From Escherichia coli (GTDB taxonomy: Bacteria; Pseudomonadota; Gammaproteobacteria; Enterobacterales; Enterobacteriaceae), in NCBI RefSeq assembly GCF_965641715.1, contig NZ_OZ282453.1: a stretch of DNA of 64,000 bases; one strand, 5' to 3'. Below are positions 12,001-15,000 of this stretch, piece by piece. Within the stretch, counting starts at the first letter, position 1. The number at the start of each line of letters is the position of its first letter. A program made the position numbers.

Positions 12001-15000
12001 ACGACAATATGTTATTGAGGAAAATAGCGCAAAAATGGTGTTATCCCGTGCGATAGATAATGCCATAGGCACATGGAGAAAAGACAATCCTAAAAATATT
12101 GCCGTATTGTCTTCAGGTGTTGTGCTTGCGCATAACGAGTCAGCTGATATCACCAAAGAAGTCATGACTTTGGTTGAAAAAGAAAATCTGGTTTTTAATA
12201 AATTACCCAAAGTGGAAGTGCACAATAAGAATGAAGAGAAACCAGAACAAAGTAAGTAATCACTAGATTCTGACGATTTCCAGAAGGGAGATTCAGCAGG
12301 CCAGCATCTGTAATCATTCAGATTTGCTGGCTTGCTGCTAAATATGGTTGCTAAGAAAAATAGCAGGCCAGTAATTTATTCAGATTACTGAATATAATAA
12401 TTTTTCAGGAACGGTTATGCTGAAGGTAGTATGTTTAATAGACACAATTATTTGCTGTGTCTAATATGAGGTGACATTTTTATGATCACTGACCAGCAAG
12501 ACTGACCCGTATTGATTAGCCTGATTATTGGCAACTTATTGGGGTAGTCATTTTGACATCGAATGGGGGAGGTTTCCAGTTAAGTTCACGAATGCATGAT
12601 GATTTGCGTTCACATATCGAAGTACTGGTTGGCTATACTAAGGATTTTAAGATAACTCACTGATTGTAAGTGGGTTATTGCGAGGGGGATGATAGATGGT
12701 GTCCCCTGCAGACATCTACTTGAAGCAGCAGGGGATTGATTGGAATGGTGTTTTTTAGATGTGAGAAATATTTTACCCGCTATTTTACCCATTGGCGCGG
12801 CTTAAGAGCTTATTTTTGAATTCACAATGGTCACGATATAACCATCTTGCTCGACCGTGGATAACTTTGGCTTTTGGCAGGTCGCCGGACTTAATCCGGT
12901 CGTAGATGAAGGTTTTACCAAAGCCAGTATCAGCCATGATGAATTTCAAATCAACCAGGGAATCAGGCTGTAGTTCGTGTTGCATGAGTGCTATCTCCGA
13001 ATAGGGAATCGAACCTGCAAATCAGGTAATAAAAAACCGCCATCAGGCGGATTGGTGTTCTTTCAGTTCTTCAATTCGAATATTGGTTACGTCTGCATGC
13101 GCTATCTGCGCCCATATCATCCAGTGGTTATAGCAGTCGTTGATGTTCTCTGCTTCGATAACCCTGTTGAATGGCTCTCCATTCCATTCACCTGTGACTC
13201 GGAAGTGCATTTATCATCTCCATAAAACAAAACTCGCCGTAGCGAGTTCAGATATAATATCCACCAAAGGCAGTAGTTGCTTGATGCTAAGAATTATTCA
13301 ATATCTATTCCTGTAATATCTTTTATCTTTTTCCTTGCAAAGCCTTTTGCTAGTGATTTTGAAACACTCATAAGTGTACTAATTCCCTCATCCTTAAAGT
13401 TTGTTTTTATAGCTTGCCAGACATCCTTTTGACGTAAGTCAGCAATAAAATCATGCCCTCTTGCTGTCAACCTCAGTGGTACTTCGATCCAACTATATCC
13501 AACACCTTCCCCTAACGCTTTGGACATTATATGACCGAACCCAGGTTTTCCATCAACCCTGACTATTAATTCGTAGTCACATAATAATCGCATATGGAAA
13601 ATAAAATCTTGGTCATATCTATTAAAGCCATTATCCTCTAGTTCACTAAGCATCGTGTCAGGGCCACGAGTTTTTTCGAATGCGATAAGTAGATCTTTTA
13701 GATATTGCTGGTCTAATTTCATTGCCGCCTCCGTGACATGTCACAGAGATTTATATCATTAATTTTGTTTCGTGCCAGCGTTTGGTCACCCAGCATTGTG
13801 AGTCACCATTACACGGGCATGAATTAACAGGAACTCTCTCGCCGCACTTACCTCAACGTTTTCTGCTGATCGATTTTATACGCCAGCGCACACGTGCATC
13901 ATCCTGGCGGCTCAGTAACGCGATGTACTCACCAAACTCGCAAGGCGCACGCCTGAAGCGACGCGTGGCACAGTTACGCTCCAGCATTTCAATTTCCTGA
14001 GCATCAAGTACAAGCTCCAGCTTACGCATACCGGATGATGCTTGCTTGGCTCTCCGATCGGCTTTGTGCTCTGTTGCTGATTTAGCCATTCTGCTTTTCC
14101 TGCATCAGGAGAAAGACAATCATGGCGGCGCGGATACTTCCGGTATCTTTTTACGCGATATTCCCCTTCAATGGCACATACAAGAAGAGAGCCATCAACA
14201 GGAGTGATTGAGGAATCGACAACCAGCAACGCTTAATTATCTATAGTGTCGTATTTGCTTCATAAAATATGGCGAATAACACAAAGCCCGCAGCAGCTCA
14301 TTGTGCGGGCTTTTCTTATACCTACTTCCTAGAGATAATTCTATGGAGGCATTAAATCAATACTGTCATTGGTAATATCATATTATCTAAAAGTCTTTCC
14401 ACTTTTAACATCTAGGTATATTCTGTTCGACAACGTCATTCCTCCGCAATATGTGAAATAGATGTTTTCACCCTTATTGCTTGATGCCATCCACCCTCCG
14501 ATTTCCTTAAAATCGCTTTCCGTGCAGACCCCTTCATTTATTAACTTCCTAGCTGCCGAAGAAAACTCTTTTTTGTATATACGGTAGTCATCAGATCCTT
14601 TGATTAAAGTATCATCTCCGCTCGCATTTTCAGCAGGATCTGATGGCCTTTCACTGCTAAGATCACTAAGTTTAACCCATTCTGAAAACTTTCCATTAAC
14701 GATTCCATTTTTTCTTGTGCAGGATTTATTACCTTCTTTAATATATTCGCTTTCCCCTCCAACACATGAGGCTGAATATGGCTCAGTTATACGAACCCAT
14801 TCACCTTTTTTTTCTAGAAAATCTACGCCTTCCCTGAAAAATAGTTTCCCAGCCACTCCACATTTACTTGAAGGGCAGGTATGTCTTTCCGTTCGATCAA
14901 CAACAACCCATAGTTTTGATTCATTTTTTGCCATTGCCGATGGTATTTGAGATGAGACAATTAACGTAAGCCCTAAAATTAGTATTGATTTTTTCATTGT

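What the first reader, a model, noticed from the sequence alone, without database searches (positions are those of the whole stretch)
12696..13020. tRNA-Arg 3' homology at the distal prophage junction is split by the torI segment
At the tRNA the sequence atggtgtcccctgcag-gaatcgaacctgcaa is contiguous (56800-56830). At the far junction the first 16 nt occur at 12696-12711 and the next 16 nt at 13005-13020, separated by 293 bp that contain the whole torI gene. This suggests the excisionase cassette sits inside, or was inserted into, an extended att homology, or that two nested integration events left separate att remnants.
Basis: seen in the sequence. Interest (0 to 1): 0.45.

Follow-up and report, generated by a model that had tools for sequence, protein, structure and literature searches.

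The report
tRNA T-arm copy upstream of torI
The second stretch of tRNA-Arg sequence at the far prophage junction is real, but it is not an integration scar: it is a built-in, strongly conserved piece of the phage's own integration/excision module, lying just in front of the excisionase gene, and what reads it is still unknown.

Summary
ATGGTGTCCCCTGCAG (C1) lies at 12696-12711 and 56800-56815. GGAATCGAACCTGCAA (C2) lies at 13005-13020 and 56815-56830. The whole torI gene (12785-12985, minus strand) sits between the two blocks at the far junction. Neither 16-mer is expected by chance (0.03-0.04 matches expected).

The same C1-309 bp-C2 layout occurs in K-12 KplE1 and in the free phages HK620 and Sf6, so it belongs to the phage and is not a product of nested integration in this strain. 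It is a duplication rather than a clean split: the attP sequence next to C1 still carries an in-register, degenerate copy of the T-loop (20 of 23 positions in most lineages).

The published 135-bp attR that recombines in vitro lacks C2. In 5,426 E. coli genomes I found no unsplit site and no C2-by-C2 joint.

The new point is conservation. The core GGTTCGATTCC(C) stays 27-30 nt upstream of the excisionase start codon in most lineages, down to 39% excisionase identity. In phiEt88 the excisionase sites and integrase arm sites have changed but this core has not. That argues against a TorI operator. The integrase core-binding domain or a host factor remain as candidate readers.

The CUS-3 GenBank record annotates C2 as its att core and leaves torI outside the record.

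The parts
12696..12711 (.). attR core C1 (ATGGTGTCCCCTGCAG, the reverse complement of the published KplE1 16-nt core CTGCAGGGGACACCAT); the junction between bacterial flank and prophage
   Evidence: core sequence quoted in PMC2951348
12712..12784 (.). P arm of attR. It holds the inverted partner GCAGGGG (12728-12734) of the core's CCCCTGC (12703-12709) and the first of two TTTACCC repeats (12772-12778). I read these repeats as IntS arm-type sites (an inference). The second copy, 12784-12790, starts at the last base of this span and runs into the 3' end of torI.
   Evidence: conserved across lineages in the alignment
12785..12985 (-). torI, the excisionase (recombination directionality factor); 66 aa, identical to K-12 TorI and to PDB 1Z4H
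12986..13003 (-). torI leader with the Shine-Dalgarno sequence GGAG (12995-12998 on the + strand)
13004..13020 (-). Minus-strand reading: TTGCAGGTTCGATTCC + C. The conserved core GGTTCGATTCCC is 13004-13015, and its last base lies 18 nt upstream of the torI ATG.
13027..13050 (-). Intrinsic-terminator-like hairpin (stem 13037-13050) followed by a T run, ending the upstream gene just before E
13043..13210 (-). 55-aa early-left ORF, homologue of CUS-3 ECRS218_0063. It is also found in HK022-like and Stx phages that lack torI and C2, so the mosaic boundary of the recombination module lies just upstream of E.
55482..56642 (-). intS, a tyrosine integrase with an arm-DNA-binding N-terminal domain; 97.7-99% identical to the HK620, Sf6 and CUS-3 integrases
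56640..56799 (.). P' arm of attL. It carries TorI-type pentamers (CGAAC/CGATC on the + strand) at 56706, 56716, 56726, 56769 and 56789. The GGGTAAA/TTTACCC repeats at 56640, 56655 and 56678 are inferred to be IntS arm-type sites; the first of them overlaps the intS start codon.
   Evidence: five TorI sites with GTTCG/GATCG pentamers described in PMC2951348
56800..56815 (.). attL core C1, at the 3' end of argW
56801..56875 (-). argW, tRNA-Arg(CCT). Its T-arm (56815-56830) is the original of C2.

Best explanation
The second tRNA-identical block is not a junction scar. It is a conserved cis element ('E', minus-strand core GGTTCGATTCCC) of the KplE1/HK620/Sf6-type argW recombination module, and the phage carries it in its own genome.

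Position: E lies in the short leader between an intrinsic terminator and the Shine-Dalgarno sequence of the excisionase gene torI.

Relation to the att site: E is a second copy of the argW T-arm, which is the left (B) half-site region of attB. It is a duplication of that sequence. It is not the detached half of a once-contiguous att homology, and recombination does not need it.

Shown: its presence in free phages; its constant position; its sequence constancy while neighbouring and synonymous sites diverge; its independence from changes in excisionase-site and arm-site specificity; and the absence of recombinants that use it.

Inferred: because E abuts the torI ribosome-binding site, I propose that it controls torI expression. 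I propose that it is read by something whose specificity cannot drift because the tRNA pins it. The most economical candidate is the core-binding/catalytic part of the integrase, which must recognise TTCGATTCC in attB. The integrase is made constitutively in lysogens, so binding at E would keep the excisionase silent. A host factor is the alternative reader.
For: (1) HK620, Sf6, a K-12-derived strain and a CUS-3 lysogen all have C1 and C2 exactly 309 bp apart with torI between them.
(2) In IMG/VR, GTDB genomes and GenBank phages the core GGTTCGATT(C/T)CC sits at -27 to -30 from the excisionase ATG (-36 in one lineage). It occurs in Escherichia, Citrobacter, Enterobacter, Erwinia (two tandem copies), Pantoea and Edwardsiella, in Salmonella phage g341c (excisionase about 51% identical) and in Erwinia phage phiEt88 (39% identical). 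Identity at torI third-codon positions is only about 0.5 in the distant lineages, so 11-12 invariant bases are far more than drift would leave.
(3) In phiEt88 the excisionase-site pentamers in the P' arm are GTAAC/GTTAC/GTAAA in place of GTTCG, at the same 10-nt spacing. The arm repeats are GGGCATAA in place of GGGTAAA. E is unchanged.
(4) The C half-site of attP keeps TTCGAT in most lineages. This is consistent with the integrase reading that hexamer.
(5) The E. coli-type element is joined to at least two unrelated upstream genes and terminators, so it marks the edge of the module.
(6) Panis et al. 2010 report that intS is expressed constitutively at a low level, that the excision decision rests on torI expression, and that PtorI is uncharacterised (PMC2951348).
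Against: No binding or expression data exist for E.

The better-conserved integrase half-sites C and C' read G(A/G)TGTC. The B-type GATTCC in E would therefore be the weaker kind of site, and E has no obvious 7-bp overlap plus inverted partner.

E is absent from several lineages that target the same core (Klebsiella phage Chronis type, Erwinia phage EhrS_49, L096, L209, L213/214), so it is dispensable.

Most copies read GATTCCC whereas the tRNA reads GATTCCT, so E is not a perfect attB mimic.

The covariation argument against an excisionase operator rests on one lineage (phiEt88).
Confidence: 0.6

Rival explanations
1. Split att homology. An ancestral attP carried at least 31 contiguous nt of argW (C2+C1), and a 293-bp torI-plus-P-arm cassette was inserted exactly between them.
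For: In the E. coli lineage C2 ends precisely where C1 begins, with a 1-nt overlap. 16/16 identity is far beyond chance.
Against: attP next to C1 retains its own in-register T-loop homology (20/23 in most lineages), so the tRNA sequence is duplicated and not partitioned. In L095 and L208 the upstream copy continues as GATTCCTG, and in L210/L211 as a full stem ACAGG...CCTGT, so it overlaps C1 territory. No unsplit site was found in 5,426 E. coli genomes or in IMG/VR.
Confidence: 0.1
2. Two nested or tandem integration events at argW in this strain left two separate att remnants.
For: argW is a known hotspot. Tandem P4-type integrases follow attR in some related loci (L094, L098, L110, L190).
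Against: C2 sits at the same place in the free phages HK620 and Sf6, and in thousands of E. coli genomes including K-12. Nothing between C1 and C2 other than torI and the P arm is present.
Confidence: 0.01
3. E is an operator for the excisionase itself (TorI autoregulation). It contains GTTCG, the pentamer of the five mapped TorI sites, in the same orientation.
For: TorI sites are GTTCG/GATCG/GTCCG, and TorI represses PintS through them (PMC2951348). C2 contains GTTCG in the same orientation. Tandem duplication of E in the Erwinia, L098 and L205 lineages resembles repeated protein sites.
Against: In phiEt88 the excisionase sites have changed to GT(A/T)AC while E is unchanged. E is flanked by GTTCGA-TTCC, unlike the GTTCGC of the mapped sites. 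Only five TorI sites, all on attL, are reported in the accessible papers (PMC2951348; PMC3509656), even though the attL fragment includes the identical T-arm. Tandem spacing is 13-16 nt, not 10.
Confidence: 0.12
4. E acts in the mRNA. Its 3' half (AUUCC) pairs with the torI Shine-Dalgarno sequence GGAG and throttles translation of read-through transcripts.
For: The distance to the Shine-Dalgarno sequence is fixed. That sequence is predicted to pair with E, with probability above 0.5 for its first two G's, in 9 of 13 lineages. In several lineages GGUU also pairs with the AACC just before the AUG.
Against: Folding energies are no better than with a dinucleotide-shuffled element (mean z -0.30 over 16 lineages). 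RNAalifold finds no consensus structure. The E. coli leader has z = -0.7. GGUUCG stays invariant in lineages where it has no pairing partner.
Confidence: 0.12
5. E is part of the cII-dependent 'pI' integration promoter annotated in HK620 and Sf6.
For: The HK620 record places a promoter at 1664-1702 and a cII site at 1689-1701, overlapping C2 (1677-1692). Sf6 annotates a homologous pI.
Against: The putative site is TTGC/TTAC-N5-TTGC, which is not the canonical N6 spacing (the N6 consensus is from my own knowledge). Its TTGC half is not conserved outside the E. coli lineage, whereas GGTTCGATTCC is. The consensus scan found no sigma-70-like promoter here. A promoter at this position would co-express the excisionase with the integrase.
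Confidence: 0.05
6. E is a fossil: the att core of an ancestral element that crossed over at the T-loop and had torI as its first gene. It persists mainly as a recombination linker at the module boundary.
For: E sits exactly at the mosaic boundary. The CUS-3 depositors treated it as an att core. T-loop crossover is a common sublocation for tRNA-targeting integrases (my own knowledge).
Against: A functionless fossil should not stay invariant where synonymous sites are about 50% diverged. No C2-by-C2 recombinant was found.
Confidence: 0.1

Closest known systems
KplE1 (CPS-53) attL/attR-intS-torI recombination module of E. coli K-12, also found in HK620 and Sf6
   Same: It has the same 16-nt core, the same position at the 3' end of argW, an identical TorI, an integrase 98-99% identical to the HK620, Sf6 and CUS-3 integrases (the K-12 intS itself was not compared here), the same five TorI-type pentamers on attL, and the same C2 copy 309 bp from the core (PMC2951348).
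   Different: This one is a full-length 44.1-kb prophage, against the 10.2-kb remnant in K-12. The left bacterial flank is not dsdC-proximal K-12 sequence but matches strain TCM3e1. In the papers I could read, the published module stops at a 135-bp attR and does not mention the C2/E element.
CUS-3 'attL core / attR core' annotation (GenBank CP000711)
   Same: The annotated 16-nt core is exactly C2 (TTGCAGGTTCGATTCC).
   Different: The CUS-3 integrase gene and attL arm are 96% identical at the DNA level to the window, and the integrase protein is 99% identical. In the CUS-3 lysogen S88, torI lies just beyond the point where the record ends (next to dsdC), and C1 lies 309 bp beyond C2. The record was therefore most probably cut at the wrong repeat, and the true crossover core is C1.
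Excisionases that double as transcription regulators at their own or neighbouring promoters (P2 Cox, 186 Apl, P4 Vis; from my own knowledge)
   Same: In each case a small winged-helix excisionase gene has a protein-binding site placed to control excision-gene expression.
   Different: Here the conserved site does not follow the excisionase's own site specificity (phiEt88 test), and it copies the target tRNA's T-arm.
Lambda attP core-type sites (C/C', B/B') bound by the Int C-terminal domains (my own knowledge)
   Same: E equals the presumed B half-site of attB (TTCGATTCC). The inferred core is (A/G)TGTC-TGCAGGG-GACAC, that is, inverted half-sites around a 7-bp overlap.
   Different: E stands alone 300 bp from the core, with no overlap region and no clear inverted partner. 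I know of no lambda precedent for a solitary B-type half-site upstream of xis.

Membership tests
KplE1/HK620/Sf6-type argW recombination module | The 16-nt core CTGCAGGGGACACCAT is duplicated at both prophage ends, at the 3' end of argW | tested here: met
   core as quoted in PMC2951348
KplE1/HK620/Sf6-type argW recombination module | An IntS-type tyrosine integrase lies next to attL and is transcribed away from argW | tested here: met
   ORF 55482-56642 (minus strand) has Arm-DNA-bind_3, Phage_int_M and Phage_integrase domains. It is 97.7-99% identical to the HK620, Sf6 and CUS-3 integrases.
KplE1/HK620/Sf6-type argW recombination module | The TorI excisionase gene lies at the opposite end, next to attR | tested here: met
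   100% identical to K-12 TorI and to PDB 1Z4H
KplE1/HK620/Sf6-type argW recombination module | Five TorI sites (GTTCG/GATCG) in two blocks on attL | tested here: met
   Pentamers at 56706, 56716, 56726, 56769 and 56789, with 10/10/43/20-nt spacing. This is by sequence only; binding was not tested.
KplE1/HK620/Sf6-type argW recombination module | The prophage is competent for excision and integration | not testable with these tools
   Needs an excision PCR or an in vitro assay
   In-register T-loop homology lies next to C1 (20/23 in most lineages, 19/23 in E. coli). The upstream copy extends into C1 territory in L095, L208 and L210/211.
   No single-piece match in 5,426 E. coli genomes: all 11 full-coverage places are two pieces about 545 bp apart, which is ordinary attP. 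The exact pattern has 0 hits in IMG/VR.
   The 135-bp attR without C2 recombines in vitro (PMC3509656). No tRNA5'-C2-torI joint occurs in 5,426 genomes.
Excisionase (TorI) operator | The site contains the excisionase recognition pentamer and changes with it when excisionase specificity changes | tested here: not met
   GTTCG is present in the E. coli lineage, but phiEt88 has GTWAC excisionase sites and an unchanged E
cII-dependent pI promoter (HK620/Sf6 annotation) | TTGC-N6-TTGC flanks a -35 region, there is a usable -10, and the arrangement is conserved among relatives | tested here: not met
   The spacing is N5; the TTGC is not conserved outside the E. coli lineage; no promoter-like hit. 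Promoter activity itself was not tested.
tRNA gene or tRNA-like RNA | A cloverleaf or T-arm fold, or a match to an Rfam or ARAGORN model | tested here: not met
   ARAGORN finds only argW and the phage tRNA-Asn and tRNA-Thr. No Rfam family comes near its threshold. The 3' strand of the T-stem is not conserved.
Integrase core-type (B-like) half-site | Sequence identical to the attB half-site adjoining the overlap region | tested here: met
   E contains TTCGATTCC, the 9 bp to the left of TGCAGGG in argW. The position of the overlap region is itself inferred from the inverted repeat.
Integrase core-type (B-like) half-site | Bound by the integrase C-terminal domains | not testable with these tools
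   Needs a gel shift or footprint with IntS

The most novel reading that the evidence does not exclude
The element is a mimic of the target tRNA's T-arm (the attB B half-site). The integrase, whose core specificity is locked by the tRNA, binds it to repress the excisionase gene in lysogens. This would be a direct integrase-to-excisionase control link that cannot drift, because the tRNA cannot. It would explain why 12 bases stay invariant while the excisionase, its sites and the arm sites all diverge.
Probability: 0.2. Interest if true: 0.6.

Novelty: new variant of a known kind. Interest (0 to 1): 0.4.

Why it matters
The junction itself is the well-studied KplE1/HK620-type attR and holds no surprise. 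Three things are worth keeping.

(1) A correction: the extra tRNA repeat has already misled annotation. The CUS-3 record is bounded at C2 and omits its own excisionase gene. Automatic prophage-boundary callers that look for direct repeats at tRNA genes can make the same error.

(2) An unreported conserved cis element sits in front of the gene that, according to Panis et al. 2010, decides excision, and whose promoter and regulation remain uncharacterised. The element gives a precise 12-bp target for mutagenesis.

(3) If the integrase reads it, this would be an example of a regulatory site kept constant by the host tRNA target.

Tried and rejected
- Chance match: rejected.
- Scar of nested integration: rejected, because C2 is present in free phages.
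- A second integrase type with C2 as its core, as the CUS-3 record suggested: rejected. The CUS-3 integrase gene and attL arm are 96% identical (DNA) to the window, and torI and C1 lie just outside the record in lysogen S88.
- Unsplit ancestor: none in E. coli genomes or IMG/VR.
- C2-by-C2 deletion products: none.
- Rfam or tRNA-like RNA: nothing.
- RNA structure: the E. coli leader has z = -0.7, RNAalifold finds no consensus, and the shuffled-element control gives mean z = -0.30.
- Sigma-70 promoter scan: no hit at E.
- TorI operator: first favoured because of GTTCG, then weakened by phiEt88.
- Pfam on TorI, the 55-aa ORF and the hybrid hkaB-like ORF: no hits.
- Modules aimed at other tRNAs, to test covariation of E with the target T-arm: the nearest integrases outside the argW group are below 40% identical, and the Pseudomonas AlpA/int modules have a different architecture, so the test could not be made.
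- Literature: Panis 2007 (JBC), Menouni 2013 and King 2007 are not held. One PMC id recalled from memory was wrong. A full-text search for the 16-mer found nothing.
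Full report
1. What is there

The window carries a 44,104-bp prophage (core to core) inserted at the 3' end of argW, the tRNA-Arg(CCT) gene at 56801-56875 on the minus strand. The 16-mer ATGGTGTCCCCTGCAG (C1) is at 56800-56815 and at 12696-12711. The adjacent tRNA 16-mer GGAATCGAACCTGCAA (C2, the T-arm) is at 56815-56830 and again at 13005-13020. Each occurs only twice in 64 kb even with two mismatches allowed, against 0.03-0.04 expected. Between the two blocks at the far junction lie 293 bp containing the entire torI ORF (12785-12985, minus strand). The only correction is that the two 16-mers overlap by one base in the tRNA.

An empty argW site (strain TCM3e1) reads flank-C1-C2-tRNA. 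Both junctions of the window break exactly at C1, and C1 is the published 16-nt KplE1 core (PMC2951348).

2. It belongs to the phage, not to this junction

The same layout, with C2 309 bp from C1 and torI between them, is found in several places:
- a K-12-derived chromosome (L006);
- the deposited genomes of the free phages HK620 and Sf6;
- a CUS-3 lysogen (L007);
- 97-98% identical sequence across the region in Kapi1, Louie, HF4s, N7 and other phages.

About 3,100 of 5,426 complete E. coli genomes match the region. Nested integration in this strain is therefore excluded. TorI is identical to K-12 TorI and to PDB 1Z4H. The integrase is 97.7-99% identical to those of HK620, Sf6 and CUS-3. The attL arm carries the five GTTCG/GATCG pentamers described as TorI sites. 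The locus is an ordinary member of the KplE1/HK620/Sf6 recombination module.

3. A by-product: the CUS-3 record

GenBank CP000711 annotates C2 as 'attL core' and 'attR core' and ends the prophage there. The first 1,391 bp of that record (C2, C1, arm, int) are 96% identical to the window's attL side. In the CUS-3 lysogen S88, torI lies just beyond the point where the record stops, next to dsdC, and C1 lies 309 bp beyond C2.

4. Split or duplicated?

A clean split predicts that the attP sequence next to C1 is unrelated to the T-loop. It is not unrelated. In most lineages attP reads TTCGATGTATGCAGGGGACACCA against tRNA TTCGATTCCTGCAGGGGACACCA, which is 20 of 23 positions in register. The E. coli lineage reads GTAGATGTCTGCAGG..., 19 of 23.

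The upstream copy also runs on into C1 territory in some lineages: GATTCCTG in L095 and L208, and a complete stem ACAGG...CCTGT in Pantoea stewartii and Edwardsiella. The T-loop is therefore represented twice in the phage. The exact abutment of C2 and C1 in the E. coli lineage looks partly fortuitous.

A synthetic 'unsplit' query (terminator-C2-C1-arm) found no single-piece match in 5,426 genomes. All 11 full-coverage places were two pieces about 545 bp apart, which is normal attP in circular or tandem phage DNA. The exact pattern was absent from IMG/VR. The reciprocal C2-by-C2 deletion joint (tRNA 5' half-C2-torI) was found in no genome.

The KplE1 in vitro excision assay uses a 135-bp attR whose inner primer lies in the 3' end of torI. 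C2 is therefore not needed for recombination (PMC3509656; primers mapped on L006).

5. The element is conserved far beyond its surroundings

I collected the region upstream of torI homologues from IMG/VR, from one genome per species and from GenBank phages. The core GGTTCGATT(C/T)CC sits 27-30 nt before the excisionase start codon (36 nt in L095) in the following:
- Escherichia, Citrobacter and Enterobacter;
- Erwinia, with two tandem copies;
- Pantoea and Edwardsiella;
- an unclassified MAG;
- Salmonella phage g341c (excisionase about 51% identical);
- Erwinia phage phiEt88 (39% identical)
.

Third-codon positions of torI are only about 50-55% identical between these lineages and E. coli, and the rest of the intergenic region cannot be aligned. 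Eleven or twelve invariant bases therefore imply selection.

In the E. coli lineage the element is joined to at least two unrelated upstream genes, each ending in a terminator. Phages without torI share only the sequence beyond C2. The element thus marks the edge of the module.

It is absent where the excisionase gene directly abuts or overlaps the upstream gene (Klebsiella type), and also in EhrS_49, which keeps an 85-nt gap, and in L096, L209 and L213/214. It is therefore an accessory element and not essential.

6. What reads it?

Excisionase operator. I first favoured this, because Panis et al. 2010 define the TorI sites by the pentamer GTTCG and C2 contains it in the same orientation. phiEt88 argues against it. 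There the five pentamers, at the same 10-nt-phased positions, are GTAAC/GTTAC/GTAAA, and the arm repeats are GGGCATAA in place of GGGTAAA, yet the upstream element is still AGGTTCGATTCCC. The element follows neither the excisionase nor the integrase arm-binding specificity.

RNA explanation. This is not supported statistically. There is no Rfam match and no consensus fold. The Shine-Dalgarno sequence is often predicted to pair with AUUCC, but the folding energy is no better than with a shuffled element (mean z -0.30).

Promoter. HK620 and Sf6 annotate a cII-dependent 'pI' promoter over this spot. Its TTGC half-site is not conserved outside the E. coli lineage, and no promoter-like pattern is detected.

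What remains. All of them target the same tRNA, so one candidate is the core-binding/catalytic part of the integrase, which must recognise TTCGATTCC in attB; the C half-site of most lineages also keeps TTCGAT. The other candidate is a host factor. Because the element touches the torI ribosome-binding site, I infer a role in keeping the excisionase silent. This fits the published view that intS is on constitutively and that excision is decided by torI expression. This last step is inference only.

7. Verdict

The 'insertion into a contiguous att site' and 'nested integration' readings are not supported. The junction is a known kind (KplE1-type attR). The modest novelty is an undescribed, strongly conserved T-arm look-alike in the excisionase leader. 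I did not find it discussed in the papers I could read or in a full-text search for the 16-mer. Interest is moderate (0.4): useful for annotation, and a defined target for people studying excision control.

Noticed in passing
phage record CP000711.1 (L001 1-16; L004 1-16); S88 chromosome L007 1707-1907: The CUS-3 GenBank record is bounded by the C2 repeat, annotated as 'attL/attR core'. It therefore omits torI and the true core C1, which lie just outside the record's end in a CUS-3 lysogen.
   Followed up: yes
window 26147-26302: Two adjacent phage-borne tRNA genes, tRNA-Asn(GTT) and tRNA-Thr(TGT), lie inside the prophage. The Kapi1 paper describes two tRNAs just before the lysis module in that related phage.
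   Followed up: no
window 12703-12709 and 12728-12734: The core's CCCCTGC has an inverted partner GCAGGGG 18 bp inside the P arm. The pair (CCCCTGC ... TGCAGGGG) is conserved in all lineages aligned, which suggests an extra integrase core-type site or a cruciform-prone structure.
   Followed up: partly
window 56706-56824: The TorI-type pentamers and the tRNA T-loop GTTCG are spaced 10, 10, 43, 20 and 31 nt apart, all close to whole helical turns. The T-loop inside argW could therefore act as a sixth, in-phase site on attL. The accessible papers report only five sites.
   Followed up: partly
L216 (phiEt88) 2500-2680 compared with window 56640-56800: In phiEt88 the excisionase-site pentamers (GTWAC) and the arm repeats (GGGCATAA) have both changed relative to the E. 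coli module, while their positions are kept. This is a clean natural example of co-evolution between the excisionase and integrase N-domain and their DNA sites.
   Followed up: partly
L094, L098, L110, L190 (downstream of the attR core): In several non-E. coli genomes the attR core is followed directly by another P4-type integrase gene. This indicates tandem arrays of integrative elements at the same tRNA gene.
   Followed up: no
window 12500-12695; L005; L006: The bacterial flank to the left of attR is not the dsdC-proximal K-12 sequence. It matches strains such as TCM3e1, where a hypothetical gene and the UpaE autotransporter gene precede argW. Position 12695 is G, whereas attP and the empty site have A, so the att identity would otherwise run to 22 nt (TGATAA + C1).
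   Followed up: partly
E. coli genomes records NZ_CP081786.1 and NZ_CP081778.1 (39,448 bp), NZ_CP081694.1: Small circular 'plasmid' records in strains 0H24-0H26 carry the attP arrangement (torI-C1-arm). The same strains also have a chromosomal copy. These records are probably excised or replicating phage genomes assembled as plasmids.
   Followed up: no
window 12610-12792 (minus strand): A 60-aa ORF spans the attR core. It is the prophage-state hybrid of the small hkaB / Sf6 gene 17 ORF that crosses attP in the free phages. It has no Pfam match, and its conservation may only reflect the DNA sites beneath it.
   Followed up: partly
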